Part shown: positions 430 to 56,529 of the stretch, piece by piece
Position numbering within the stretch: position 1 is the first letter of the stretch
Layout: every line of letters begins with the position of its first letter
Virus record (IMG/VR): IMGVR_UViG_3300045988_065440
Coordinates: 17,176-81,175 of that record
Length of the DNA: 64,000 nt
Reading direction: 5' to 3' (one strand)
DNA from: a virus
The notes under the pieces: generated by a model
Database searches by the model: none
The model's input: the letters and a program-made list of their open reading frames with translations, nothing else
Told to the model about the DNA's origin: nothing
Program-made: the position numbers and the translations under genes

Positions 430-501
430 AGGGCTATCGCCAAGTGGTAAGGCACAGCACTTTGACTGCTGTATTCGCGGGTTCGAATCCCACTAGCCCC
501 G
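430..501 (+). tRNA. tRNA-Gln (anticodon TTG)
   Basis: Cloverleaf by eye: acceptor AGGGCTA/TAGCCCC, D arm GCC-AAGTGGTAA-GGC, anticodon arm CAGCA-CTTTGAC-TGCTG, T arm GCGGG-TTCGAAT-CCCAC. Mismatches at 1:72 and in the T stem. Close to Bacillus tRNA-Gln. Confidence 0.8.
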
Positions 502-556
502 TTTGTCGGGTTGCGCATGTACCTGGCAATGGTTTATTTCACATAGACCCTCCGAT

Positions 557-610
557 ACCCATCTAGCTCAACGGAGCTGATTAAAGGGGCTTCAAACGTC
601 CCGGATGGGA
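557..610 (+). ncRNA. tRNA-like element lacking an anticodon arm
   Basis: Acceptor-like CCCATC(558-563)/GATGGG(604-609). D-like hairpin AGCTC-AACG-GAGCT (565-578). 7-nt linker GATTAAA. T-like arm GGGGC-TTCAAAC-GTCCC (586-602, one G:U). Confidence 0.4.
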
Positions 611-680
611 TCCCCGTATAGGTGACAGCAAAACCAAAAAAGGGAGCCTTTGTTGCGACTGGCGGCAAAGAATCGCAACA

Positions 681-720
681 GTAGAAAATATGGCTTTGAG
701 GTGCTGGTAATATTTTCTAC
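681..720 (+). other. perfect 11-bp hairpin just upstream of the tRNA at 724
   Basis: GTAGAAAATAT (681-691) pairs with ATATTTTCTAC (710-720); 18-nt loop. Confidence 0.6.
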
Positions 721-723
721 TCA

Positions 724-796
724 GGAAATTTAGTTCAGTGGTTAGAACGCCCGGCTCATAACCGGGAAGTCCTGAGTTCGAATCTCAGAATTTCCA
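724..796 (+). tRNA. tRNA with CAT anticodon (Met or Ile2)
   Basis: Canonical cloverleaf: GGAAATT/AATTTCC acceptor, GTTC-AGTGGTTA-GAAC, CCCGG-CTCATAA-CCGGG, variable loop AAGTC, CTGAG-TTCGAAT-CTCAG, discriminator A. Confidence 0.9.
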
Positions 797-1105
797 TTTC
801 TTCCGTATGCTACCCATCCGTTTTATGGGAAGAAAAAACTTTCGGATGAGCGTATGTGAATCAGAATGAGCAAAGATATGTAACGGCATAGGCTTGTGTT
901 TGATCTGATTTCCCGTCCGATGAATGTTTCTTAGTTTCAATAAGCCATCACAAGCGCGCATTGATGACAAGGGAGTTTTCAAGGAACATAAAGTCAAAAG
1001 GCATAATAATATCCGAAACAACTTCGTGGGGCTGGCACGGCATAAAACAGTCTAGTGGAACGCATAACACGAAAAAATCATTGCTAACCCGGGGTTTCCG
1101 GGTTC

Positions 1106-1178
1106 AGGCAGGATAGAGAAGTGGAAACTCACAAGGTTCATATCCTTGAGAACGGCGGTTCGAATCCGCCTCCTGCAA
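1106..1178 (+). tRNA. tRNA with CAT anticodon (Met/fMet/Ile2), non-canonical D stem
   Basis: Acceptor GGCAGGA/TCCTGCA with a G1-A72 mismatch, U8, 3-bp D stem GAG/CTC, CAAGG-TTCATAT-CCTTG, variable loop AGAAC, GGCGG-TTCGAAT-CCGCC. Confidence 0.7.
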
Positions 1179-1562
1179 TTTGCCAAGAGAAACAAGGTGT
1201 TCCAGTCCTTATAACTTGGGCGGGCGGTTCAATTCCGCAAGTCGGCAGTTCCGGCAGATACTCCTCTGGCAAAAAACATTTATCCGCTTAGAGCTAAGCT
1301 ATCTGCGTACAGGCGGTCTATAGCTTATGCGGTTTGCGCATAAACGTAAACGCACAACTCACTAGGCATTTGCGTAAAAGAACTTTTTAGAGAGATGAGA
1401 CCACCGACTGTGAGAAGTGATAGTCAGTAATTCTAAAAGGGCCATCTAGTTCATGCGTTTTTACGATGGAAAGGTTATTGCTTATCTGGATATTACATCC
1501 AGTCCGAAAGCATATGAAGTGAAAATCAACTCAGTTTTTTTAACTGACCGTGACAAGCGGTA

Positions 1563-1631
1563 CGGAATGTAGCTCAGGTGGGAGAGCGCACTACAAAAGT
1601 GAGGTCGCAGGTTCGAATCCTGCCTTTCCGA
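1563..1631 (+). ncRNA. tRNA-like element with truncated anticodon arm
   Basis: Acceptor CGGAATG/CTTTCCG (1 mismatch), standard D arm GCTC-AGGTGGGA-GAGC, variable loop AGGTC, T arm GCAGG-TTCGAAT-CCTGC. Only 13 nt (CACTACAAAAGTG) sit where a 17-nt anticodon arm belongs. Confidence 0.45.
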
Positions 1632-6486: not shown

Positions 6487-7689
6487 ATGAGTGACTTGAA
6501 GATATTTACAGAAAACATCGAACCAGAAGCGTTAAATCAGATTTATACATTGATAAAACAGCCTGCATTTTCCGAATGCAAAGTACGAATCATGCCAGAT
6601 GTTCACGCAGGGGCAGGATGTGTAATTGGTTTTACTGCCGATCTCGGAGATAAAGTAATCCCGAACATTGTTGGCGTAGACATTGGATGTGGAATGCTTA
6701 CAACACAAATTCCTGCTGACGTTGGAACAATAGATTTTAAAATTCTCGACGAAGTAATAAGAAACAATGTTCCGTCAGGAAGAAACGTACGTGACAAAAT
6801 CATAAATTTTGAAGAATTAGAAGAACTTCATTGTTTTTCTCGACTCAAAAATATTGAATGGATTCGCAGGAGCCTTGGTACACTTGGGGGCGGAAATCAT
6901 TTCATTGAAGTTGACACTGATTCGAAAGGATTAAATTATCTTGTAATCCACACTGGGAGTCGGAATCTCGGGAAACAAGTAGCTGAAATATATCAAAAAA
7001 TTGCCATAGAAGACATGCAAGGTACAGACAAGCTCGAAACTGAAATACAAAAATTGGTGAAAGAATACAAGCGTTCTGGCAGACGCAAGGAAATCCAACA
7101 TGGTATTGACGAATTAAAACGAAAATGGAAGCCAGACAAACTGGGTATTCCGAAAGAATTGTGTTACTTGACAGGAGAACACAGAAAACAATATCTGCAT
7201 GATATGAAAATCTGTCAAGAATTTGCAAGAATAAACAGACGATGTATACAGAGCACTATATTTTACACTATGAATTGGACGTTCCAAAGAAACACATGGT
7301 TTGATACAATTCATAATTATATTGACCACGATACAAACATTGTTCGTAAAGGGGCAATATCAGCTAGACATGGCGAAAAAGTTCTTATCCCAATGAATAT
7401 GCGAGATGGATGCATTATTGCAGTTGGGAAAGGAAACGATGATTGGAACTGTTCGGCCCCGCATGGTGCAGGACGCATTATGAGCCGGTCAAAAGCAAAA
7501 GAAAACATCTCGTTAGAAGAATTTAAGGAGTCTATGGATGGGATATACACAACATCCGTTCAGAAATCCACAATTGATGAAAGCCCTATGGCCTACAAAC
7601 CACCGCAAGAAATTATTGATAACATCAAAGATACTGTAGAAATAGTTGATATTATCAAACCTATATATAACTTCAAAGCAAGTGAATAA
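6487..7689 (+). CDS. rtcB: RtcB-family RNA 3'-phosphate/5'-OH ligase
   Basis: Hallmark motifs MPDVHAGAG, GVDIGCGM, GGGNHFIE, HTGSRNLG and SAPHGAGR (His nucleophile). 400 aa. Confidence 0.9.
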   Translation: MSDLKIFTENIEPEALNQIYTLIKQPAFSECKVRIMPDVHAGAGCVIGFTADLGDKVIPNIVGVDIGCGMLTTQIPADVGTIDFKILDEVIRNNVPSGRNVRDKIINFEELEELHCFSRLKNIEWIRRSLGTLGGGNHFIEVDTDSKGLNYLVIHTGSRNLGKQVAEIYQKIAIEDMQGTDKLETEIQKLVKEYKRSGRRKEIQHGIDELKRKWKPDKLGIPKELCYLTGEHRKQYLHDMKICQEFARINRRCIQSTIFYTMNWTFQRNTWFDTIHNYIDHDTNIVRKGAISARHGEKVLIPMNMRDGCIIAVGKGNDDWNCSAPHGAGRIMSRSKAKENISLEEFKESMDGIYTTSVQKSTIDESPMAYKPPQEIIDNIKDTVEIVDIIKPIYNFKASE

Positions 7690-29511: not shown

Positions 29512-29626
29512 TTTGGTAAAACCAACAGGCTAGACCGATCATCGAAAAGCGGAAATGCCTTGCCGCCTGCCTGTTGATTTACATACATTTCAAGGCATCT
29601 TTTATACGAAAGGCAGGTATTTTTTT
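29512..29626 (+). ncRNA. structured leader, copy 1 (riboswitch-like or cis-regulatory)
   Basis: TTTGGTAAAACCA block. P1 CAACAGGC (29523-29530)/GCCTGTTG (29569-29576). ATGCCTTG (29555-29562)/CAAGGCAT (29591-29598). Alternative helix CCTGCCT (29566-29572)/AGGCAGG (29611-29617) followed by a T-run. Confidence 0.45.
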
Positions 29627-30097
29627 ATGAAATTCAAAGAACAATCAAAAAGTCTCAATATTCCAATATCAAGAGAACCTATTATCTACTTTCTTCTGGA
29701 CGGAGATGAAGTGGTTTATGTTGGGCAATCCCGATTGGGACTTTTTCGTCCGTACAGTCATGCAAATAAACATTTTACTTCGGTTTCTGTTATTAAATGT
29801 CAACTAGAAGAACTGGATTCTTTGGAGATTTTTTATATCAGAAAATATTTACCAAAATACAATCAAAAACTTGTTGACGATAAGCATGAGTTCTCTTTTG
29901 GAAAAGTAAGAAGAATAATAAGAGATCAAACAGATTTTAAAAATTGTACTGTTTTTCATATAAGGAAAATGGTAAAAATTATGAAAATAAATACTTTTTC
30001 TATTCAAGATACTTTTTACATGGCATCTGATGATGCGGAAAAAATAATTGATTATGTAAATTCTCATTATGACGGTCACGAATTAAAAGTATCGTAA
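29627..30097 (+). CDS. GIY-YIG nuclease (free-standing homing-endonuclease-like)
   Basis: IIYFLLDGDEVVYVGQS...R..YSH...E...YI..Y.PKYN matches the GIY-YIG core. ATG 29627. Confidence 0.65.
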   Translation: MKFKEQSKSLNIPISREPIIYFLLDGDEVVYVGQSRLGLFRPYSHANKHFTSVSVIKCQLEELDSLEIFYIRKYLPKYNQKLVDDKHEFSFGKVRRIIRDQTDFKNCTVFHIRKMVKIMKINTFSIQDTFYMASDDAEKIIDYVNSHYDGHELKVS

Positions 30098-30098
30098 T

Positions 30099-30229
30099 TT
30101 TGGTAAAACCAGTAGGCTAGGGTAGCTCCCGAAAAGTGTAAACCTTGATGCACCTGCCTGCTGTTTTTATAAATCAAGGATTCTGGCATATTACGGAGAT
30201 GCCAACGACCAACAAGGAGGTTATCTATT
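30099..30229 (+). ncRNA. structured leader, copy 2
   Basis: Same TTTGGTAAAACCA, AGGCTAG, CGAAAAG and CCTGCCTG blocks. P1 CAGTAGGC (30110-30117)/GCCTGCTG (30156-30163) with a compensatory A:U to G:C change. CCTTGAT (30143-30149)/ATCAAGG (30173-30179). Confidence 0.45.
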
Positions 30230-44841: not shown

Positions 44842-44921
44842 CGATTGAAGTAGACAATCACATCGAAAAAGAAGATATGCTGCAATTCTTGGAATTGAGT
44901 TCAAAGAAAGGAAAAATAAAA

Positions 44922-45467
44922 ATGCTGTGTTATAAAGGGTTCGATAAAGATTTGAAATGTCAAGATTTCCAGTACGAAACCGGGAAAAAATATTCAGAAG
45001 AAAGTGCTGAAATTTGCGAAAAAGGATTTCATGCGTGTGAATTTCCATTAGATGTATTTAGATATTATGCACCGTCAGATTCAAGATACTGTGAAGTAGA
45101 TTTGGATGCAAACGATCAAAAATCAAATGATAGCAAGAGAGTTGGAAAAAGTATTTCGATCAAAGCTGAGATCGGGATTGCTGGAATCGTAAAAGCCGGT
45201 GTTGAATATATCAAGAACCAAGTTGATTGGAACAATGATAAAAAACCAACACCGGAGACTGTTCAGCGGCAACCAACACCGGATACTGTTCAGCGGCAAC
45301 CAACACCGGATACCGTTCAGCGGCAACCAACACCGGATACCGTTCAGCGGCAACCAACACCGGAAACTGTTCAGCGGCAACCAACACCGGAAACTGTTCA
45401 GCGGCAACCAACACCGGATACTGTTCAGCGGCAACCAACACCGGATACCGTTCAGCGGCAACCGTAG
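44922..45467 (+). CDS. repeat protein, 0-frame product (N-domain plus 8 x PTP[DE]TVQRQ)
   Basis: ATG 44922. Ends at TAG just after the tandem repeats. Confidence 0.45.
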   Translation: MLCYKGFDKDLKCQDFQYETGKKYSEESAEICEKGFHACEFPLDVFRYYAPSDSRYCEVDLDANDQKSNDSKRVGKSISIKAEIGIAGIVKAGVEYIKNQVDWNNDKKPTPETVQRQPTPDTVQRQPTPDTVQRQPTPDTVQRQPTPETVQRQPTPETVQRQPTPDTVQRQPTPDTVQRQP

Positions 45468-49010: not shown

Positions 49011-49457
49011 ATGCAGTTAGCAACTTGGGGAACATATAGATTTAAAGCCGATGCACAGAAATGCGCAGATGAAATCATGGAAATTTGTGATGAATTAGAA
49101 TCAGCTACGCCACAGCAGATTCTTGACAAAGCAAGAGATAGCAATACTGAACTTCACAAGTGCTTTACATGGGACGATACCGAAGCTGCCGAGAAATGGA
49201 GAGTACAGGAAGCCAGATCGGTTGTAAGAAATCTTAGAATCGTCGAGGTGAAGCCAGATAAAGAACCAGAGCCGACAACAATCAGAGTTTTCTACAAGAC
49301 GGATAACGAATCTGGATATAAACCAACAAAGTTGATCTTGAAGAAGCCAGACGAATATAAAGCACTTGTGGAACGTTGCAGGAGTGAACTTCTGGCAATA
49401 AAGCAGAAATTCCAGAATATCTCGGAATACGAAGAAATATGGGAAATGATTAATTAA
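49011..49457 (+). CDS. hypothetical protein
   Basis: 148-aa ORF with a GGGAGGGG SD. Confidence 0.6.
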   Translation: MQLATWGTYRFKADAQKCADEIMEICDELESATPQQILDKARDSNTELHKCFTWDDTEAAEKWRVQEARSVVRNLRIVEVKPDKEPEPTTIRVFYKTDNESGYKPTKLILKKPDEYKALVERCRSELLAIKQKFQNISEYEEIWEMIN

Positions 49458-50488
49458 ATGTCAAAGCTGCTACTGTGCTGATATTCCTACAGGAGTAGGA
49501 GCACAGAACACAACAACGCACAACAAAGCACGATACAGCACAATAGAACAGCATATTATGCAAAACTTTTATTCTTGTAGGTTTATGAGTGCAGTAGCGG
49601 CAAACTTCCTACGTTAATATGCCTGTAAAATGGGCAAATGAAATACATCACACGATAATACAGAACACAACAAAATAGGTTAAAACAAAATATTCGCTTA
49701 ATTTTACAGGTTTATGAGCGTAGGAAACCACAGCATTTATCAGTCTGCATAAGCAGAAAGACAGGATAACTCACAACAAAACAAAATAAAATAATTCAGT
49801 ATAGTGCAGTATCTCTTTCTTTTGTGCAGAGTGACGAGTGTTGTGAACACTTATTATAGGATAAAAAATCTTATAGCAGGAAATAGCAGCACAGAACAAT
49901 ACAACACAACACTTCAACGGAGGGCTGTTTTTCAGACGGTATAACCGTCAAAGCAAAACAACATAGAACACCACACGACATCATATGATAGCAAAGTATA
50001 CGATAGCAAAATATACGACAAAAATATGACCTTTATATCGTCTGCAAAGCAGTTCTCCAAAATTTGAATTTTGGGTAGGTGGCATGAAAAATGTCACACA
50101 GGATACTAAACGATACCATAGGACAATACAGAATAACACAGTATATGACACTGCAAGACAATTCATGTTACCTACCGAGCATTCAACACAGATGTATTTA
50201 ACTGGCAGTAGAATCTGCCAAGCACAGAAGATTATATCTTCGCACAATATAGAACAGCATACGAAAGTACAATATAGCACATTCTATTGTCGGCTAAGTG
50301 CATCTGAAATTTGCGTAAAGATTCAAGCGGGTTAATCCGCAGGATACCATAGGACACCATAGAATACCGCAGAACAAAATAAATCAAAACAGCATACTAC
50401 ATATGTATTTATTGCAGATTAATCTGTTTGGATGTTTGCGCAAACAGAAACTATAAATCAAATCATAAAATTTCGGAGGGAAAACATT
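49458..50488 (+). ncRNA. ORF-free structured A/C-rich repeat region (upstream array)
   Basis: No credible ORF. Seven AGAACA and two AGGACA copies, all on the + strand. Long-range helices 49622-49631/49701-49710 and 50074-50086/50164-50176 (2 G:U). Several perfect 6-bp hairpins. Confidence 0.45.
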
Positions 50489-51133
50489 ATGGCAACTAAA
50501 AAAGAAGAAGGAATCCAGTTACAGGCAATCAACGTTAAACATGCAACAATCACAATCGAAGGAGACGGAGATTTAGTCCTTAATAAGATGAATGATGTTG
50601 TGGCAATGGATTTAATTAACGCCAGAAAGGACAAGGCAAAAAGAACTGAAAAATCCAACGTTTGGGAAGAAATCATCACGTCTATGCATTGGAGAGATGG
50701 AAAACCTACAAACTTTTCGGAAGAAGGACTGATTGAAGCATTGCAGAACAATGCCCCATGTATCACAGCTTTTGGACTTCTTAAATCGTTCTGTGATGCG
50801 GTTGTCAGAAACGGCATCGACAAATACAGCACGAAATTTAAAGCAGGAGTAAATGTGACGGCAAAAGGCGGTTTAATTCCAATCACATTTGCCGAGCACA
50901 ATATTGATGAAAAACTCATGTCTCCAAAGAAGGGTGCTCCGGTGCTTGTGCATCTGAATAGATTTTCCGGTTGGAAAGCGACATTCGAGATTTCATATGT
51001 CGAGAATATTTATTCGATTGAACAGATCATCAATATCATCGAACTTGCAGGTTTTGGCGGTGGCATTGGCTCTGGACGCACAAGCGGATATGGTAGATAC
51101 CACGTTTCGAAAGAAAACATTGTGATTTATTAA
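50489..51133 (+). CDS. hypothetical protein with C-terminal Cas6/RAMP-type glycine-rich loop
   Basis: ATG 50489 with a GGAGGG SD. 214 aa. ...ELAGFGGGIGSGRTSGYGRYHV fits GhGxxxxxGhG, 12 residues from the C-terminus. Confidence 0.6.
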   Translation: MATKKEEGIQLQAINVKHATITIEGDGDLVLNKMNDVVAMDLINARKDKAKRTEKSNVWEEIITSMHWRDGKPTNFSEEGLIEALQNNAPCITAFGLLKSFCDAVVRNGIDKYSTKFKAGVNVTAKGGLIPITFAEHNIDEKLMSPKKGAPVLVHLNRFSGWKATFEISYVENIYSIEQIINIIELAGFGGGIGSGRTSGYGRYHVSKENIVIY

Positions 51134-51420
51134 AAGAATTTTTCAGTGGCATATGAATCCGGGTGAATGCCCGGAAGTATAGAAAATTTCAAGCAAATAC
51201 AGAACAGGACAGAAAAGGAAAAAACAGAAAAAGACAAATTATTTCATCCTGTTTCATATGCCACTGAGCATAACTCTCAGGTACATTCACGGTGGATTGA
51301 GATTCCACCAAAATAGGACAGTATATAACAACGTAACAAAGATTAGAACAGCGTAGCATAGATTTTTATTTTGAATTTCGATTCACTATGTATGTGCCTG
51401 AGAAAAGTATAAAAAATATA
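51134..51420 (+). ncRNA. ORF-free structured A/C-rich repeat region (downstream array)
   Basis: Perfect 15-bp helix 51143-51157/51253-51267 and 11-bp helix 51276-51286/51392-51402 (1 G:U). Each encloses a 6-bp hairpin plus an A/C-rich run carrying ACAGAACA / ATAGGACA / TTAGAACA. Confidence 0.45.
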
Positions 51421-51434
51421 AAAGGAGAATTAAA

Positions 51435-52379
51435 ATGGCAAACAAAACACAGGTAGCAACAGTAGGAGAACAGCAGGCAGCAGTTGTGATTAACAATCAG
51501 TTTATTGACGGATTGACAAAACAGCTTGAAGAAAAATGTAAATATGGTCTTTCGTTCCCAAAAGACTACAACTTGAGCAATGCACTTATGGGGGCATATC
51601 TAGTTCTCAAGGAAACGAAAGACAGGAATAACAAACCAATTCTGGAATCTTGTAGCCAGATTAGCATCGCAAACAGTCTTATGAACATGGCAACACTAGG
51701 ACTTTCAGTACAAAAAAAACAGGGGTATTTCATCGCTTACAGCGGTCAATGCCAGTTCCAGAGATCATATTTCGGAAATATGACGATTGCCAGAAGATAC
51801 GGAATGAAAGATATTCACGCAGAGATCATCTACCAAGGAGATAAATTCAAATATCATATTGAAGACGGAAATAAGGTTCTGGATTCTCACGAACAGGATT
51901 TTATGAACATTGATAACGAAAAAATCCTTGGAGCATACGCAGTTGTGCTGATGGAAGATGGGGCGAAGCATTTGGAAGTAATGAACATCAAACAGATTAA
52001 GCAAGCTTGGTCACAGGGCTTCGGATACAAGGAAAATGGGAATGGCACACACCAGAAATTCACTGATCAGATGGCAAAGAAAACCGTTATCAATCGTGCC
52101 TTAAAGCAGATCATCAACACTCATGGTGATGTTTTCGTACAGGAAGCGGACGATGATACAGAAACAGTTTCAAGAAATGACGCTTTTGCAGCTGATGTTG
52201 CATATGAAATCGAACAGCACGCCAATAAAGAGGAATTCATCCCAGAACCAATGGCAATCGAAGAACAGCCGAAACAGCCAACAGTCGCAGAAGCCGTAAA
52301 GACTGCCGAGAAAGAACCAGTTCCGGCAGCAGTTGTTGAGCCAGAGATTCCAGATTTTATGAAGCAGGAGGAAATGTGA
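51435..52379 (+). CDS. recT: RecT-family single-strand annealing recombinase
   Basis: ...GLSVQKKQGYFIAYSGQCQFQRSYFGNMTIARRYG...EIIYQGDKFKY...MAKKTVINRALK matches the RecT pattern. Confidence 0.8.
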   Translation: MANKTQVATVGEQQAAVVINNQFIDGLTKQLEEKCKYGLSFPKDYNLSNALMGAYLVLKETKDRNNKPILESCSQISIANSLMNMATLGLSVQKKQGYFIAYSGQCQFQRSYFGNMTIARRYGMKDIHAEIIYQGDKFKYHIEDGNKVLDSHEQDFMNIDNEKILGAYAVVLMEDGAKHLEVMNIKQIKQAWSQGFGYKENGNGTHQKFTDQMAKKTVINRALKQIINTHGDVFVQEADDDTETVSRNDAFAADVAYEIEQHANKEEFIPEPMAIEEQPKQPTVAEAVKTAEKEPVPAAVVEPEIPDFMKQEEM

Positions 52380-52380
52380 T

Positions 52381-52986
52381 ATGAACAATAAAGAAATTTT
52401 ACAGAAAGCAAAGGAACTGGTTGAACTTCTGGAAAAGCAGGAAGAAGCTGGCAAGGTTGCGCTGTCAATGCTGAAACGAGGAGATGTTTTTCAGACCACC
52501 GGGAAGCGTAAATACAAGGTTCTGGAACAGTATGGAGATACAACGAAAATTATTTCGCTTGATCTGGTGAAAGAAAATGTAGAGTTTGGTGATACCTTAG
52601 ATTACAAAGCATCAAATGTAAAGAAACTGTGTGACACAGAAATCTTAAATGATTTTGAGGAAGAATTTGGCGCTGAAAATATCGAAGAGCACACAGCAGA
52701 TATTATCACCGTGGATGGACAGAAATTGGGGACTGTTGATTGCAAAATTCGACCGATTACGTTTGATGAAGCGCGCGGATATACAGATATCACACCGAAT
52801 CCGTGTTTAAACGATTGGTATTGGACATTATCGCCATGGTCAACGAAAGAACGTGGATGGGAGAAAGCCTGTGCCGTTGTTTCCCCTTCGGGCTATTTCG
52901 ACTACGACTATTACTACAGCGTTAATGGTGTTCGCTCAGTTTGTATCTTAAAATCTAATATCTTTGTATCTAAGGCGGAGGAATGA
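52381..52986 (+). CDS. DGR target protein 1 (DUF6273-like / putative C-type-lectin-fold variable protein)
   Basis: C-terminus WYWTLSPWS...AVVSPSGY-FDYDYYYSVN-GVRSVCI carries VR1. Confidence 0.75.
   Translation: MNNKEILQKAKELVELLEKQEEAGKVALSMLKRGDVFQTTGKRKYKVLEQYGDTTKIISLDLVKENVEFGDTLDYKASNVKKLCDTEILNDFEEEFGAENIEEHTADIITVDGQKLGTVDCKIRPITFDEARGYTDITPNPCLNDWYWTLSPWSTKERGWEKACAVVSPSGYFDYDYYYSVNGVRSVCILKSNIFVSKAEE
52870..52947 (+). repeat. DGR variable repeat VR1
   Basis: 78 nt colinear with the TR. All 9 differences in the 62-nt core lie at TR adenines. Confidence 0.85.
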
Positions 52987-53597
52987 TTATGAAGAAAAAT
53001 CTGAAATATTTTGAGGATGAATTATCCCGATTAAGTAAAGAGTTCACGGAATTCAAGAAAAAGCACATCGGAAAGCCGGAAATCGGAAAAGCTATTGAAC
53101 TTGCAGGTATGGAATGGCTGATTCTGGATAAGACAGAAAAAGGATATTTTGCCATTTTGAATGGATTTGATGGAAAAGAAAGAACATTTGATTCAGATTC
53201 AAATAACTGGATTTCAAGTAAACTGAGAAATGAGTTAAACACTCGTTTTCTTAAAAAAATTACGGACGAGCTTGGAGAAGATGCAGTTATTGAGTTTGAT
53301 CGAGATTTACTTTCTATGGACGGCCAGACAGAATATGGACATTGTAAAGATAGGATTTCACTTTTGACTGTGGATGAGTACCGGAAATATCGTAAATTGC
53401 TGCCGAACATGTCGAAATGGTGGTGGTTGATTACGCCATGGAGTACACCAGTAAATGATTACAGTACAACAATTACCGTTGTTTCCCCTTCGGGCTATGT
53501 CAGCTGCGACATTTACAGCTTTTACGACGACGGTTATGGTGTTCGCCCAGCTTGTATCTTTTCTTCTTCAATCTTTGAATCAGGAAATGATGATTGA
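52983..53597 (+). CDS. DGR target protein 2 (paralog of target 1)
   Basis: WWWLITPWS...TVVSPSGY-VSCDIYSFYDDGY-GVRPACI carries VR2. Confidence 0.75.
   Translation: MIMKKNLKYFEDELSRLSKEFTEFKKKHIGKPEIGKAIELAGMEWLILDKTEKGYFAILNGFDGKERTFDSDSNNWISSKLRNELNTRFLKKITDELGEDAVIEFDRDLLSMDGQTEYGHCKDRISLLTVDEYRKYRKLLPNMSKWWWLITPWSTPVNDYSTTITVVSPSGYVSCDIYSFYDDGYGVRPACIFSSSIFESGNDD
53472..53558 (+). repeat. DGR variable repeat VR2 (9 nt longer than TR)
   Basis: 87 nt. It aligns to the TR if TR AATTACAAC is duplicated. All core substitutions lie at TR adenines. Confidence 0.8.
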
Positions 53598-53968
53598 TGG
53601 CAAATGAAGATTTAAAGGTAATAACAAAGGCCAAGCAACTTGCAAAGCATACATTAATAGTTACGAGTAATGCCAGACGATACCCGAAAAAATACAGGTT
53701 TTCACTTGTAGATAAAATGCAAAATAAAGCATTGGAAATTTATGAGTCACTATTTGAAGCCAACCGAACTGATCTGAAAGATTATAAAAGAGAGCGATTA
53801 GAACTTCAAACAAAAGCCATTACTCATTGTGATGAGTTGATGTACTTTATAGAACTTTCATATGAATTAGGAATTATCAATTCCGGTGGAATGGAAGCAT
53901 GGTCGCAAATGGTAAAAGATATAAAGTACATGACTATTTCATGGAGAACAAAAGACAGAAAAAGATAA
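53597..53968 (+). CDS. avd: Avd-like four-helix-bundle accessory protein
   Basis: ~123 aa, basic and helical (...YPKKYRFSLVDKMQNKALEIYESLFEAN...). Lies between the target genes and the TR, as in DGRs. Confidence 0.7.
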   Translation: MANEDLKVITKAKQLAKHTLIVTSNARRYPKKYRFSLVDKMQNKALEIYESLFEANRTDLKDYKRERLELQTKAITHCDELMYFIELSYELGIINSGGMEAWSQMVKDIKYMTISWRTKDRKR

Positions 53969-53990
53969 TTTTCACAGGTTATGCACTGCG

Positions 53991-54068
53991 AATACCGTTG
54001 TTTCCCCTTCGGGCTATATCAACAACAACAATTACAACAACGAAAATGGTGTTCGCCCAACATGGATC
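53991..54068 (+). repeat. DGR template repeat (TR)
   Basis: Non-coding copy of VR with an AAC/AAT-rich core (ATC AAC AAC AAC AAT TAC AAC AAC GAA AAT), directly upstream of the RT. Confidence 0.85.
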
Positions 54069-54163
54069 ACATGCAGACAGAGTAAGCGTAAAGCTGAAAT
54101 CAGAAAAGATACAAGCAAATGCATAACCTTTCCGCAATGGACAAATATAAAGGAACAAAATAA

Positions 54164-55183
54164 ATGGATAAAGAAATTATTGCAAATTTTGAGAATTTAT
54201 ATCGTTCTTACAAAAAGGTTAAGATCGGTAAGAAATTTAATTCAGGTACTGCAAGATTTTCTAATTTGTCTCTTGAAGGCATTCATCTCTTGAAGGAACA
54301 ATTAGAAAGTCAAACGTATACCATAAATCCGTATAATAAATTTCAAATTCATGAGCCAAAAGAGCGAACGATAGAATCATGTGCATTTAAGGATAAAGTA
54401 GTGCAGAGATGCTTTTCTGATTACATTCTGACACCGAAACTTGAAAATATCCTGATTAAATGGAACACTGCCGGGCAGCAAGGAAAAGGGCAACACATGG
54501 CAATGGACGGGTTAAGAAATCAAATGTTGGATTTCTATAAAAAAAATGGAATGAATAGTTGGATTGTAAAATGTGATATTCACAAATACTTTTATTGCAT
54601 AGACCATGAAATCATGAAGGATGTTTTGGATTATTACTTTGATGATGATTTTACAGTCTGGTTAAACCATTTGTTTATTGACAGTACAGGTAATCCCGGG
54701 CTTCCATTAGGAAATCAGGTAAATCAGAAGTACGCATTGTTGCTTTTACATTCACTGGATCAGATGATAACGATTGAATTTGGAAATCCATATTATGGAC
54801 GATACAACGATGATTTTTATGTGATTTGTAAAACGAAAGAAGATGCCAGAGAAATTTTTGAAGCAATCCGAATGATGATTGAAAGCCTTAGACTGGAATT
54901 AAATCCTAAATCACAAATTGTACCATTTTGCATGGGCTTGTGTTATCTGGGTTTTCACCATTACGTGACTGATGAAGGAAAATATATCAGGAAATTGCGT
55001 GGTGATAAGAAAAGAAAAACACAGAGGAAAATTCGAAGATGGGTACAGGCGGTGAACGACAGGAAGATGCCGATAAAAAAATTCAATGAAAAATACGAAT
55101 CATGCAAGAATCATATGCTTCATGGAAATTGCATCAAATTATGCCATAGTATGGATTTGGATATTGAAAGGAGAATGAAATGA
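54164..55183 (+). CDS. DGR-type reverse transcriptase
   Basis: YNDD catalytic box (GRYNDDFYVIC). LPLGNQVNQ resembles the DGR [ILV]GxxxSQ motif. 339 aa. Confidence 0.85.
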   Translation: MDKEIIANFENLYRSYKKVKIGKKFNSGTARFSNLSLEGIHLLKEQLESQTYTINPYNKFQIHEPKERTIESCAFKDKVVQRCFSDYILTPKLENILIKWNTAGQQGKGQHMAMDGLRNQMLDFYKKNGMNSWIVKCDIHKYFYCIDHEIMKDVLDYYFDDDFTVWLNHLFIDSTGNPGLPLGNQVNQKYALLLLHSLDQMITIEFGNPYYGRYNDDFYVICKTKEDAREIFEAIRMMIESLRLELNPKSQIVPFCMGLCYLGFHHYVTDEGKYIRKLRGDKKRKTQRKIRRWVQAVNDRKMPIKKFNEKYESCKNHMLHGNCIKLCHSMDLDIERRMK

Positions 55184-55761: not shown

Positions 55762-56529
55762 TTGTTCATGCGAGTAATTTCAACAGGAAGTACCAAAGGA
55801 AATTGTTACGCTTTGCAGTCAAGCACAGGCGAGATTGTTCTTCTTGACTGTGGATGCAACTACAAGAAAATCCTTAGAGGGATTGACTACCAGATAAGCA
55901 ATGTTGAAGCTGTACTTCTTTCACATGGGCACGGAGATCACACCGAAGCATTCAAGGAAATAATGAATGCAGGCATTCAGATTTACACCAATGACGAGAC
56001 AGTTGAGAACATGAACATCCGAACAGGTGAGCTGATGAAAGGTGTTCCAGAAAGATACCCATTTAGAGTTGGTTCGTTTAATGTGACTCCGTTCAATCTC
56101 CCACATACGACATATGATAAGGATACAAAGCAGCTTGTACCTTGCCCGAACTTTGGCTACTTGATAAAGCATAAAGAAATGGGAAATATTCTGTACATGA
56201 CGGATTTTGAGTATTGCAAGTATGATTTCCAGAACGCAAAACCAGCCCACATTATTATTGAATGCAACTACTGCGAAGAACTGGTGGACAGGTCAGAAGC
56301 CAACTACATCCATAGATTGAAAGGACATTGTTCTTTGCCGACTTGTAAACAATTCATTAAGCAAAACCGCACAGAATCGCTCCGAACAGTGACATTGGTA
56401 CATTTAAGTGGTCAAGCATCAGATGCCAGTAAAATACAAAAAGAAATACAGGAAGTCGCAGGAAGTAATGTTCTGGTTCAGATTGGACGGGCTGGACTGG
56501 AAGTTGACTTGAATTTATGCCCGTTCTGA
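55762..56529 (+). CDS. MBL-fold metallo-hydrolase (possible nuclease)
   Basis: HGHGDH (HxHxDH) motif. TTG or ATG start after GAGGTG. Confidence 0.7.
   Translation: MFMRVISTGSTKGNCYALQSSTGEIVLLDCGCNYKKILRGIDYQISNVEAVLLSHGHGDHTEAFKEIMNAGIQIYTNDETVENMNIRTGELMKGVPERYPFRVGSFNVTPFNLPHTTYDKDTKQLVPCPNFGYLIKHKEMGNILYMTDFEYCKYDFQNAKPAHIIIECNYCEELVDRSEANYIHRLKGHCSLPTCKQFIKQNRTESLRTVTLVHLSGQASDASKIQKEIQEVAGSNVLVQIGRAGLEVDLNLCPF

What the first reader, a model, noticed from the sequence alone, without database searches (positions are those of the whole stretch)
50489..51133. Stand-alone protein ending in a Cas6/RAMP-type glycine-rich loop, embedded in the repeat arrays
The 214-aa product ends ...IIELAGFGGGIGSGRTSGYGRYHVSKENIVIY. 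GIGSGRTSGYG fits the RAMP/Cas6 G-rich loop consensus GhGxxxxxGhG, with a basic residue in the x5 segment. It lies about 12 residues from the C-terminus, where Cas6 proteins carry this loop. No other cas genes and no CRISPR array are present. Instead the gene is bracketed by structured repeat RNA-like sequence on both sides. One hypothesis is a phage RAMP-like endoribonuclease or RNA-binding protein that processes or binds the flanking array. Just upstream of the SD, a palindrome GTTTGCGCAAAC (50434-50445) competes with TCTGTTTG/CAAACAGA (50423-50430/50441-50448). This call rests on one motif and on context only.
Basis: inference. Interest (0 to 1): 0.7.

Follow-up and report, generated by a model that had tools for sequence, protein, structure and literature searches.

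The report
Phage VIPR system, non-GGY guide repeats
The gene encodes a Vipr protein, the Cas7-like core of the recently described phage VIPR RNA-guided DNA-silencing system; the flanking non-coding DNA is its guide-RNA array, built on A-Y-A repeats instead of the published G-G-Y.

Summary
The ORF (50489-51133, 214 aa) and its C-terminal glycine-rich loop are real and invariant across about 2,300 homologues. The AlphaFold model is a single-RRM RAMP closest to Csm3/Cas7, not Cas6. Profile searches link it to the solved SUSP1 Vipr protein (PDB 36pp). That makes it a member of the VIPR systems described in two 2026 bioRxiv preprints: Vipr plus vrRNAs made of pentanucleotide repeats, which bind dsDNA through a gapped NN code.

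The flanking non-coding DNA holds ten vrRNA-like units, eight upstream and two downstream. Each is a tract of 7-14 pentamers enclosed by a helix of roughly 20-31 bp.

Three points differ from the published text:
- The constant trinucleotide is A-Y-A on the gene's strand, not GGY.
- The four residues that read the two guanines in SUSP1 are all replaced (H17N, R138L, D177S, W178G).
- The array is a string of back-to-back long hairpins.

Sister clades that keep H/R/(D,E)/W carry GGY repeats. Close relatives swap whole tracts inside conserved stems. Two guides from related phages match an MBL-fold gene of sibling phages at 22/24 and 20/22 NN positions, in frame, with the skipped base at the wobble position.

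Verdict: a known kind of system, probably a new code variant.

The parts
49011..49457 (+). Conserved 148-aa protein directly upstream of the array; candidate Vipr-accessory protein (vap), function unknown
   Evidence: A homologue lies upstream of the array in 101 of 106 related loci; the median gap to the vipr start is 798 nt. PHROG phrog_15946, unknown function. AF2 model has pLDDT 78, with no Foldseek PDB match and no similarity to the Felixounavirus vap1.
49466..49602 (+). vrRNA-like unit U1: closing stem around tract 49501-49555 (11 NN-AYA pentamers)
   Evidence: In eight variants from related loci the arms form a 31-bp helix with invariant G.U pairs and compensatory changes, while the tract between them is replaced.
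49606..49726 (+). Unit U2: stem 49606-49643/49690-49726, tract 49643-49692 (10 pentamers)
   Evidence: (inverted repeat I1).
49729..49846 (+). Unit U3: tract 49759-49808 (10 pentamers) inside a long stem; the tract is replaced in the closest relatives
49850..49908 (+). Unit U4: short tract 49874-49908 (7 pentamers) with no enclosing stem in the MFE fold; possibly degenerate
49919..50058 (+). Unit U5: tract 49951-50020 (14 pentamers) inside a long stem; the tract is replaced in the closest relatives
50064..50186 (+). Unit U6: tract 50096-50160 (13 pentamers) inside a long stem
50189..50306 (+). Unit U7: tract 50222-50281 (12 pentamers, two of them degenerate) inside a long stem
50310..50444 (+).
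   Evidence: The palindrome lies at -54 from the start codon in 35 of 106 loci.
50489..51133 (+). vipr: 214-aa single-RRM RAMP (Cas7-like), G-loop at residues 188-203
51143..51267 (+). Downstream unit D1: stem 51143-51167/51243-51267 around a degenerate tract at about 51197-51243
   Evidence: inverted repeat I2; tract read by eye.
51275..51403 (+). Downstream unit D2: long hairpin around tract of about 51309-51360 (10 pentamers, 8 matching AYA). The NN string is GG GT TA AC AC GA GA GC GC GA
   Evidence: Hairpin; tract; candidate target in the alternative RecT allele of sibling phages.

Best explanation
This is a VIPR (Viral Interference Programmable Repeat) locus in a tailed phage of gut Clostridia. 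The 214-aa protein is a Vipr, a minimal Cas7-like RAMP. The non-coding DNA on both sides encodes ten vrRNA-like units on the same strand as the gene. Each unit carries a tract of 7-14 pentamers in which a constant A-Y-A trinucleotide (ACA > AUA > GCA) alternates with two free bases (NN). A long helix formed by the unit's 5' and 3' flanks closes each tract.

Inferred from the characterised Felixounavirus (SUSP1) system:
- One Vipr protomer binds each pentamer.
- The protein holds the constant trinucleotide and presents the NN pairs.
- The filament reads double-stranded DNA at NNxNNx..., one base skipped per repeat, usually the codon wobble position.
- Binding silences transcription of genes in competing phages.

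Specific to this clade:
- The constant trinucleotide is AYA, not GGY.
- The four residues that read the two guanines in SUSP1 are replaced (H17->N32, R138->L156, D177->S195, W178->G196), while R179->R197 is kept.
- The array is probably transcribed with vap and vipr as one RNA and cut out at the long stems, possibly by RNase III.

Shown here: the fold, family membership, the periodic tracts and their strand, the link between tracts and the gene, tract swapping between relatives, the correlation between residues and motif, and skip-1 in-frame matches for two guides of related phages. Inferred only: RNP formation, DNA binding, silencing, processing, and the targets of this window's own guides.
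For: Fold and family:
- The AF2 model has pLDDT 87 and pTM 0.81. The top Foldseek PDB hits are Csm3/Cas7 of type III-A and type VII (E down to 9e-6, TM about 0.5).
- A profile of 78 diverse family members hits PDB 36pp 'SUSP1 Vipr protein' at E=2.1e-14.
- The window-clade profile against the canonical-residue clade gives hhalign 99.94%, E=6e-37 over 211 columns. That clade hits 36pp at E=1.7e-13.

Tracts:
- Eight NN-RYA chains lie in 49458-50488 and none elsewhere in the 64 kb; shuffles give 0.2.
- The first 86 related loci hold 359 chains on the gene's strand, 0 on the other strand and 0 GGY chains. Of these, 344 are within 1,250 nt upstream and 15 within 250 nt downstream.
- The logo from 124 unique tracts is N N A(.87) Y(C .70/T .24) A(.97). 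Tract length peaks at 10-13 pentamers.

Strand:
- With the tract held unpaired, the flanks fold at -29.8 kcal/mol in sense against -22.7 in antisense. Sense wins in 91 units against 30 (p=2e-13).
- In the flanking helices G:U outnumbers A:C by 418 to 176.
- The 31-bp helix of unit 1 has five invariant G.U pairs and two compensatory changes.
- The reference locus and the canonical clade both carry GGY on the vipr strand.

Guide-like behaviour:
- The closest relatives keep the stems but replace whole tracts.

Code switch:
- An unbiased enumeration of trinucleotide motifs gives AYA as top motif in the N/S/G clade (79 of 106 loci) and GGY in the H/E/W clade (52 of 80 loci).

Targeting rule:
- Local hits with at most 3 mismatches under skip-1 number 92, against 22 for shuffled guides. 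Skip-0 gives 16 against 28 and skip-2 gives 30 against 24.
- Guides from L043 and L048 match an MBL-fold gene next to vipr in about 30 sibling loci at 22/24 and 20/22, in frame, with the skipped base at wobble. None of 300 shuffles reaches these scores.

Mechanism in the reference system comes from 10.64898/2026.04.26.720920 and 10.64898/2026.04.26.720927.
Against: - The window-clade profile alone barely reaches the solved Vipr (E=0.81; hhalign 54% over the C-terminal 55 residues). Family membership therefore rests on a transitive, though strong, chain.
- No expression data exist, so the strand is inferred from helix statistics on units that are not phylogenetically independent. Whole-unit MFE does not separate the strands, and the promoter/terminator scans are uninformative.
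- Read on the opposite strand the motif is U-R-Y/NN, one base away from GGY. That might correspond to the preprint's 'YNNNG' class.
- No convincing natural target was found for the window's own guides. The U5 core gave 0 hits and the U6 core gave 9 chance hits in IMG/VR. The D2 hit of 17/20 is reached by 10 of 300 shuffles.
- The published type II tail (a 3' pseudoknot) is absent.
- In the MFE fold unit U4 has no closing stem.
Confidence: 0.85

Rival explanations
1. It is a VIPR locus, but the guide RNAs come from the opposite strand. The constant trinucleotide would then be U-R-Y (UGU > UAU > UGC), a mild degeneration of GGY that may already be covered by the preprint's 'YNNNG' class.
For: The reverse complement of NN-AYA is URU/URY-NN, one base away from GGY. 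UGU and UGC occur as degenerate repeats inside the Felixounavirus arrays. R197, the equivalent of the residue that stacks on the pyrimidine Y3, is retained. The preprint lists YNNNG and NNNNG variants. Whole-unit MFE does not separate the strands.
Against: The helices that enclose the tracts are markedly better in sense: -29.8 against -22.7 kcal/mol, 91 units against 30. G:U outnumbers A:C by 418 to 176. Unit 1 has five invariant G.U pairs that would be C.A mismatches in antisense. Every neighbouring gene and the GGY tracts of the reference and sister clades share the vipr strand. All four guanine-reading residues are replaced, including both contacts to G2, which this reading would keep as G in 70% of repeats. 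No convincing minus-strand promoter was found.
Confidence: 0.1
2. The protein is a Cas6-like endoribonuclease that cuts the flanking structured array into units, which then act without it.
For: There are weak sub-threshold hits to Cas6 models confined to the G-loop: PADLOC Cas6 at E=0.044, and one family member each to PF10040 and PF01881. The array is a string of hairpins that must be processed by something.
Against: The model has a single RRM core. All 50 listed Foldseek hits (43 at E<=0.001) come from type III (Csm/Cmr) and type VII effector complexes; the subunits named are Csm3, and none is described as Cas6. The family is homologous over its full length to Vipr proteins, which are filament-forming guide binders. 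The 5-nt periodicity of the tracts matches one protomer per repeat rather than a cleavage site.
Confidence: 0.03
3. The periodic tracts are DNA-level elements, such as iterons, a replication origin or recombination sites, that belong to the surrounding SSB/SbcC/RecT module. The RAMP-like protein would be unrelated to them.
For: The locus sits inside the replication and recombination module, between SSB, an SbcC-like ATPase and RecT. Part of one tract shows 10-nt spacing.
Against: The motif is strictly strand-asymmetric, and it travels with the vipr gene across loci whose other neighbours differ, for example HerA-like or MBL genes instead of RecT. The two free positions are near-uniform and whole tracts are swapped between close relatives. 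The flanks show RNA-type G.U pairing and covariation. Two guides match foreign genes only under the skip-1 rule.
Confidence: 0.02

Closest known systems
Type II VIPR of Escherichia phage SUSP1 / Felixounavirus (Vipr, PDB 36pp; bioRxiv 10.64898/2026.04.26.720920 and 10.64898/2026.04.26.720927)
   Same: Both have a small (about 200 aa) single-RRM RAMP with a thumb and a C-terminal G-loop. Both are phage-encoded, outside CRISPR-Cas, and flanked by long intergenic regions on the gene's strand that hold several roughly 100-nt units. Each unit has about 9-16 pentamer repeats with three constant and two hypervariable positions. In silico, guides match coding DNA with one base skipped per repeat, at the wobble position. 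Both have a small conserved accessory gene next to them. Apparent targets are genes of competing phages.
   Different: The constant trinucleotide is AYA, not GGY. The residues that read G1 and G2 are all replaced (H17N, D177S, R138L, W178G). The array lies mainly upstream, between the accessory gene and vipr, rather than mainly downstream. Each tract is closed by a helix of roughly 20-31 bp formed by its own flanks, in place of a 3' pseudoknot tail. The accessory protein shows no similarity to the Felixounavirus vap1. The hosts are gut Clostridia.
Sister Vipr clade with canonical H/R/(D,E)/W residues in IMG/VR contigs (loci L108-L187)
   Same: The proteins are homologous over their full length (hhalign 99.94%). 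Pentamer tracts of similar length lie on the vipr strand.
   Different: Its tracts are GGY/NN. They lie mostly downstream of vipr (204 of 240 chains) as contiguous arrays without enclosing stems.
Cas7-type backbone subunits of class 1 CRISPR effectors (Csm3, Cmr4, type VII Cas7)
   Same: These are the best structural matches: an RRM core, a thumb and a G-rich loop in a protein of similar size. Like them, Vipr polymerises along a guide RNA with a fixed nucleotide period (from the cited papers).
   Different: The locus has no Cas10, Cas5, Cas6 or small subunit and no CRISPR array. The period is 5 nt rather than 6. The guide is gapped rather than contiguous. The target is dsDNA rather than RNA, as shown for SUSP1 and inferred here.
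Cas6 endoribonucleases
   Same: Both carry a C-terminal GhGxxxxxGhG-type loop; sub-threshold model hits are restricted to that loop.
   Different: Cas6 has two RRM/ferredoxin-like domains and cuts repeat hairpins. This protein has one RRM, and none of the listed structural matches is described as Cas6.

Membership tests
VIPR system (Vipr + vrRNA) | Vipr protein: a small single-RRM RAMP with a thumb and a glycine-rich loop | tested here: met
   The AF2 model has pLDDT 87. Foldseek PDB top hits are Csm3/Cas7 at E=9e-6 to 1e-3. The G-loop is invariant in the family. Pfam RAMPs gives a sub-threshold hit on the G-loop.
VIPR system (Vipr + vrRNA) | Sequence homology to an experimentally characterised Vipr (SUSP1, PDB 36pp) | tested here: met
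   The link is transitive. The family profile A3 hits 36pp at E=2.1e-14. A2 against A5 gives hhalign 99.94%, E=6e-37. A5 hits 36pp at E=1.7e-13. The direct window-clade profile is weak: E=0.81, hhalign 54%.
VIPR system (Vipr + vrRNA) | Phage or provirus context, no cas genes or CRISPR array, vipr flanked by long intergenic regions | tested here: met
   The window encodes terminase, portal, major head, tape measure, tail and endolysin proteins. The intergenic regions are 1,031 nt and 301 nt. No CRISPR-like repeats were found. Not every ORF was checked for cas genes.
VIPR system (Vipr + vrRNA) | vrRNAs made of about 9-16 tandem pentanucleotide repeats with conserved and hypervariable (NN) positions | tested here: met
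   The window holds ten tracts of 7-14 pentamers. The logo has three constant and two near-uniform positions, and tract length peaks at 10-13. Tracts are swapped between close relatives.
VIPR system (Vipr + vrRNA) | Repeat consensus GGY/NN (YNNGG) or the listed variants NNNGG, YNNNG, NNNNG | tested here: not met
   The first 86 loci contain no GGY chains on either strand. The top motif is AYA on the gene's strand. Only the disfavoured antisense reading (U-R-Y/NN) would resemble YNNNG. Fig. S17 of the preprint could not be viewed.
VIPR system (Vipr + vrRNA) | Conserved structured 3' tail capping the tract (a pseudoknot in type II) | tested here: inconclusive
   No shared 3' tail sequence was found. 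Instead the 5' and 3' flanks of each unit pair into a long helix; 82% of units reach the helix threshold against 39% of shuffled controls.
VIPR system (Vipr + vrRNA) | Targets recognised by the NN positions with a 1-nt skip, usually in coding DNA with the skipped base at the wobble position | tested here: met
   This holds for guides of related loci. Skip-1 gives 92 hits against 22 for shuffled guides, with no excess at skip-0 or skip-2. The matches are 22/24 and 20/22, in frame, and no shuffle out of 300 reaches them. For the window's own guides there is only a weak candidate, D2 at 17/20.
VIPR system (Vipr + vrRNA) | Associated vap accessory gene | tested here: inconclusive
   A 148-aa protein is conserved next to the array in 101 of 106 loci. 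It has no fold match and no similarity to the Felixounavirus vap1. The identities of vap1-6 are not available here.
VIPR system (Vipr + vrRNA) | Vipr-vrRNA ribonucleoprotein forms and represses transcription of matching DNA | not testable with these tools
   This needs small-RNA sequencing, pull-down and reporter assays.
Cas6 | Two RRM/ferredoxin-like domains and structural similarity to Cas6 | tested here: not met
   The model has a single RRM core. None of the listed Foldseek hits is described as Cas6.
Cas6 | Association with a CRISPR repeat array that it cleaves | tested here: not met
   There is no CRISPR array. Cleavage activity was not testable.
Cas7 (Csm3/Cmr4) of class 1 CRISPR effectors | RRM + thumb + G-loop fold | tested here: met
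   Foldseek gives probability 1.00 and TM 0.4-0.53 to Csm3 chains.
Cas7 (Csm3/Cmr4) of class 1 CRISPR effectors | Encoded in a cas operon with Cas10/Cas5/small subunit and a CRISPR array | tested here: not met
   The neighbours are SSB, an SbcC-like ATPase, a Zn-ribbon protein, the 148-aa protein, RecT and a DGR.

The most novel reading that the evidence does not exclude
A large Vipr lineage in human-gut Clostridia phages has re-coded the protein-held part of the guide from GGY to AYA by replacing all four guanine-reading residues. This gives a naturally orthogonal VIPR code with a new array architecture: back-to-back long hairpins, each presenting a tract as its loop. Guides placed next to a phage's own allele of a mosaic gene (MBL-fold hydrolase, RecT) are aimed at the alternative allele carried by sibling phages. 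That would amount to RNA-guided allele exclusion between near-identical phages.
Probability: 0.5. Interest if true: 0.75.

Novelty: new variant of a known kind. Interest (0 to 1): 0.55.

Why it matters
VIPR was described only in 2026, as a minimal RNA-guided DNA-binding system and a proposed ancestor of the CRISPR RAMPs. Its code was described as GGY/NN or close variants that keep a G.

If the AYA reading holds, three things follow:
- The protein-held part of the repeat can evolve, and it co-varies with four identifiable residues. This directly tests the structural model of repeat recognition.
- Two mutually orthogonal Vipr/vrRNA pairs would be available for engineering.
- VIPR would be placed at high abundance in human-gut Clostridia phages: about 2,300 clusters at 90% identity in the large protein collection and 254 confirmed stretches in IMG/VR.

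The predicted targets are alternative alleles of genes that sit next to vipr in sibling phages. That gives a concrete, testable picture of what these systems are used for in nature.

For the finding as written, the main message is more modest. The 'stand-alone RAMP next to odd repeats' is explained by a system that is already published.

Tried and rejected
- Single-sequence searches of Pfam, NCBIfam, PADLOC and the PDB gave only sub-threshold G-loop hits or nothing.
- tblastn of the protein against 50,697 GenBank phage records found nothing. blastn of the region found only RecT.
- Rfam, at gathering and at E<=10, gave no family for the arrays and no hammerhead. The arrays are therefore not the ribozyme-interspersed type.
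- Simple lag-5 autocorrelation and strict 'CA' periodicity were too insensitive.
- Whole-unit MFE did not separate the strands. Promoter and terminator scans were at chance level.
- Small local hairpins abutting the tracts were no better than shuffled sequence, so I dropped the idea of a short 5' or 3' handle hairpin.
- A shared 'CAG|G' boundary motif with the GGY clade was not supported: 21% of first pentamers against 25% of inner pentamers.
- The first structure job failed and was re-run.
- The structure of the 148-aa protein gave no fold match.
- Target hunting for the window's guides in IMG/VR gave little. The U5 core had 0 hits. The U6 core had 9 hits, all at chance level on extension and lying in unrelated genes. 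The D2 core had 22 hits; the recurring one is the VYTTDEAAE motif of small HTH-like proteins (my reading of the motif, no family scan run) in high-GC phages, so these are unlikely natural targets.
- The supplementary data of the preprint are not held, so I could not assign a VIPR type I-VII.
Full report
**1. The observation**

The loop GIGSGRTSGYG lies at residues 192-202, twelve residues from the end.

Taken alone, the motif gives only sub-threshold hits. Pfam RAMPs scores E=0.015 and 16.3 bits against a cut-off of 22.1, aligned to the G-loop end of the model. PADLOC Cas6 scores E=0.044. NCBIfam gives nothing, and a single-sequence search of PDB sequences gives nothing meaningful.

The motif is not a chance feature. 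The protein has 2,337 homologous clusters in the large protein collection, none annotated. In 54 of them, at 69-95% identity, the whole G-loop is invariant.

The gene is bracketed by 1,031 nt and 301 nt of non-coding DNA. In the fold of the region they form the 3' arm of the last unit's closing stem.

**2. What the protein is**

An AlphaFold model built on 49 homologues is confident (pLDDT 87, pTM 0.81). It has one RRM-like core.

A Foldseek search of the PDB returns 43 hits at E<=0.001. All the listed hits come from type III (Csm/Cmr) and type VII CRISPR effector complexes, and where the subunit is named it is Csm3. The best is 9ash_F at E=9e-6 with TM about 0.5. None is described as Cas6.

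A profile search of 1.84 billion representative proteins finds 978 clusters, mostly full-length proteins of 200-240 aa. A profile of 78 diverse members hits one solved structure, 36pp, 'SUSP1 Vipr protein', at E=2.1e-14.

The link is transitive but strong:
- The window-clade profile alone reaches 36pp only weakly (E=0.81; hhalign 54% over the last 55 residues).
- The same profile aligns over 211 columns with a sister clade at hhalign 99.94%, E=6e-37.
- That sister clade hits 36pp at E=1.7e-13.

**3. What is known about Vipr**

Two 2026 bioRxiv preprints describe the family (10.64898/2026.04.26.720920 and 10.64898/2026.04.26.720927). VIPR stands for Viral Interference Programmable Repeat. The systems are mainly phage-encoded and consist of:
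- a small RAMP protein (Vipr);
- usually one accessory gene (vap);
- vrRNAs encoded in the long intergenic regions next to vipr.

A vrRNA has 9-16 YNNGG pentamers, that is GGY alternating with a hypervariable NN, followed by a structured 3' tail. One Vipr protomer binds each repeat. In SUSP1, H17 and D177 read G1, R138 and W178 hold G2, and a pocket that includes R179 holds Y3.

The NN pairs read double-stranded DNA with one base skipped per repeat, typically the codon wobble position. Binding silences transcription. Natural targets are competing phages and satellites. The text lists NNNGG, YNNNG and NNNNG as variant consensus patterns.

**4. The flanking arrays**

On the + strand of the upstream intergenic region I find eight chains of pentamers of the form NN-RYA. 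None occurs elsewhere in the 64 kb, and block shuffles give 0.2. Two further, more degenerate tracts lie in the downstream region.

I collected 106 related loci from metagenome assemblies, IMG/VR and GTDB genomes.
- In the first 86 loci there are 359 such chains on the strand of the gene, none on the other strand, and no GGY chains on either strand.
- Of these, 344 lie within 1,250 nt upstream, 15 within 250 nt downstream, and none inside the gene.
- The logo from 124 unique tracts is N, N, A (0.87; G 0.10), Y (C 0.70, T 0.24), A (0.97). The two N positions are close to uniform. Tract lengths are 6-20 pentamers with a mode of 10-13.

The minimum-free-energy fold of the array is a string of back-to-back long hairpins. 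Each has a stem of roughly 20-27 bp that encloses one tract as its loop; U4 is the exception. Across loci, 82% of tracts have such a flanking helix, against 39% after shuffling.

**5. Which strand is the RNA**

The reverse complement of AYA is URU/URY, so this question decides what the constant motif is. Four lines of evidence favour the gene's strand:
- With the tract held unpaired, the flanks fold at -29.8 kcal/mol in sense against -22.7 in antisense. Sense is better in 91 of 121 units (Wilcoxon p=2e-13).
- A strand-neutral helix finder counts 418 G:U against 176 A:C within the helices. Base composition alone predicts a ratio of about 0.9.
- The first unit after the 148-aa gene occurs in eight variants. 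Their arms form a 31-bp helix with five invariant G.U pairs. The column changes include 21 one-sided ones that keep pairing through G.U, two compensatory double changes, and four broken cells.
- In the Felixounavirus reference locus and in the sister clade, the GGY tracts are on the vipr strand.

Whole-unit MFE and the promoter/terminator scans are uninformative. I put the sense reading at about 0.8-0.85. RNA sequencing would settle it.

**6. Guide-like behaviour**

The window's array was aligned with its closest relatives, L008-L011, whose Vipr is 92-100% identical. Units U1, U2, U7 and U8 are identical. In U3-U6 the tract is replaced by unrelated AYA-periodic sequence while the stems stay conserved.

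The eight variants of unit 1 share arms of about 35 nt, and between them carry seven unrelated tracts. A conserved scaffold with a swapped variable region is what a programmable guide would show.

**7. The code switch and the protein**

Mapping the SUSP1 contacts onto the window protein gives:
- H17 -> N32
- R138 -> L156
- D177 -> S195
- W178 -> G196
- R179 -> R197

All four residues that read the two guanines are replaced, and the arginine is kept. The pocket residues also differ (E71 -> S100, M72 -> F101, C173 -> G191).

Among 78 family representatives, about a third carry the N...S-G pattern and most of the rest carry H...(E/D)-W. I fetched 80 IMG/VR loci of the H/E/W clade. I then enumerated all trinucleotide motifs with at most one R or Y, on both strands, for pentamer periodicity.
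- In the N/S/G clade the top motif is AYA in sense (263 clusters in 79 of 106 loci).
- In the H/E/W clade it is GGY in sense (100 clusters in 52 of 80 loci).

The repeat's constant part therefore co-varies with the residues that contact it. The H/E/W clade also has a different layout. Its tracts lie mostly downstream of vipr (204 of 240) and are contiguous, without enclosing stems.

**8. The targeting rule**

I took 99 unique guides of at least 9 NN from this clade and searched about 2 Mb of held sequence (both strands), allowing at most three mismatched bases.

| Skip | Hits with real guides | Hits with shuffled-order guides |
|---|---|---|
| 0 | 16 | 28 |
| 1 | 92 | 22 |
| 2 | 30 | 24 |

The skip-1 excess comes from two guides that lie just downstream of vipr in L043 and L048. 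They match, at 22/24 and 20/22 NN positions, two sites 66 nt apart in one gene that sits directly downstream of vipr in about 30 sibling loci. Both sites are in frame, with the skipped base at the wobble position. None of 300 shuffled-order versions of either guide reaches these scores.

The target is an MBL-fold protein (Pfam Lactamase_B_2). L043 and L048 carry their own alleles of that gene, only 41-51% identical, and the guides do not match those alleles.

For the window's own guides I found no convincing target:
- An 18-base core of U5 had no exact match in IMG/VR.
- A 16-base core of U6 had nine matches. All were at chance level on extension and lay in unrelated genes.
- The best lead is D2, which sits immediately upstream of the window's RecT. 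Its NN string reads G-V-Y-T-T-[DE]-[DE]-A-A-[DE].
- D2 matches 17/20, in frame with wobble skip, a site in an alternative RecT-family allele (Pfam RecT, E=7.7e-6).
- That allele occupies the RecT position in the closest sibling phages, L009-L012. It shares only its last 55 or so residues with the window's RecT.
- Ten of 300 shuffles reach 17/20, so this is a candidate only.
- It has the same pattern as the MBL case: a guide next to the phage's own allele aimed at the sibling's allele.

**9. Context**

The window is a tailed phage. It encodes terminase, portal, major head, tape measure, tail and endolysin-like proteins. The hosts of related proviruses are gut Clostridia MAGs: Faecalimonas, Blautia, Lachnospiraceae and Oscillospiraceae.

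The locus lies in the replication and recombination module, in this order:
- SSB;
- an SbcC-like ATPase;
- a Zn-ribbon protein;
- the 148-aa protein;
- the upstream array;
- vipr;
- two further units;
- RecT.

The 148-aa protein is conserved upstream of the array in 101 of 106 loci. That makes it a candidate vap, but its model has no fold match and no similarity to the Felixounavirus vap1.

**10. Verdict**

The protein is a RAMP-fold RNA-binding protein tied to the flanking arrays, but it is a Cas7-like Vipr, not a Cas6-like nuclease. The system is the already published VIPR.

Three things appear new relative to the accessible text of the preprints:
- the AYA/NN repeat, with co-varying replacement of the guanine-reading residues;
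- the hairpin-enclosed array architecture;
- the predicted allele-versus-allele targeting among sibling gut phages.

I could not view Fig. S17 or the supplementary data, so this clade may already be typed there. I therefore rate it 'new variant of a known kind' with moderate interest.

Noticed in passing
window 52381-55183: A diversity-generating retroelement (DGR) lies directly downstream of RecT. It has two target genes (52381-52986, 52983-53597; DUF6273-like C-termini) with variable repeats at 52872-52947 and 53474-53581. There is an Avd-like gene (53594-53968; Pfam 23S_rRNA_IVP), an A-rich template repeat at 53993-54068 that appears to differ from the variable repeats mainly at its adenines (read by eye from the aligned copies), and a reverse transcriptase (54164-55183).
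   Followed up: partly
window 29523-29595 and 30110-30179: Two Rfam int-alpA RNA motifs (RF02996; 45 and 55 bits against a gathering score of 35.8) lie on the + strand just after the tape-measure gene. The first overlaps the start of ORF 29555-30097 and the second lies just after its end.
   Followed up: no
window 430-1631 and 6487-7689: A cluster of four tRNA genes sits at the left end, and an RtcB-like tRNA/RNA ligase gene (phrog_1075, E=1e-131) lies next to the terminase.
   Followed up: no
window 45244-45463: A near-perfect tandem repeat of 27 nt x 8.1 copies (96% matches) lies inside ORF 44877-45467 (DUF7666 at the N-terminus). This corresponds to a 9-residue protein repeat.
   Followed up: no
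window 55762-56529; L087 3060-3890: The window has an MBL-fold gene (Lactamase_B_2; weak Anti-Pycsar Apyc1 hit). It is 30% identical to the MBL gene that sits next to vipr in many sibling phages and is matched by vrRNA-like guides of L043 and L048. No held guide matches the window's copy.
   Followed up: partly
window 50434-50445; 35 of 106 related loci: The perfect palindrome GTTTGCGCAAAC occurs at a fixed position, 54 nt before the vipr start, in 35 loci. The sequence it pairs with in the window occurs in only 8 of them. It may also act as a DNA operator or a translational element.
   Followed up: partly
L009-L012 (e.g. L010 3298-4104) versus window 51435-52379: The RecT gene is mosaic among the closest sibling phages. 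Two RecT-family cores that BLASTP cannot align share a 77%-identical C-terminal tail of about 55 residues.
   Followed up: partly
L108-L187 (IMG/VR): The sister Vipr clade with canonical residues carries contiguous GGY/NN arrays immediately downstream of vipr, in which one tract abuts the next at '...GGCAG|G...'. This resembles the 'staggered arrays' mentioned in the preprint.
   Followed up: no
L001 9442-9795 and 12501-12633: In one related phage the genes downstream of vipr include Pfam hits to Tad4 and, weakly, Anti-Pycsar Apyc1. The vipr neighbourhood may therefore also hold anti-defence genes.
   Followed up: no
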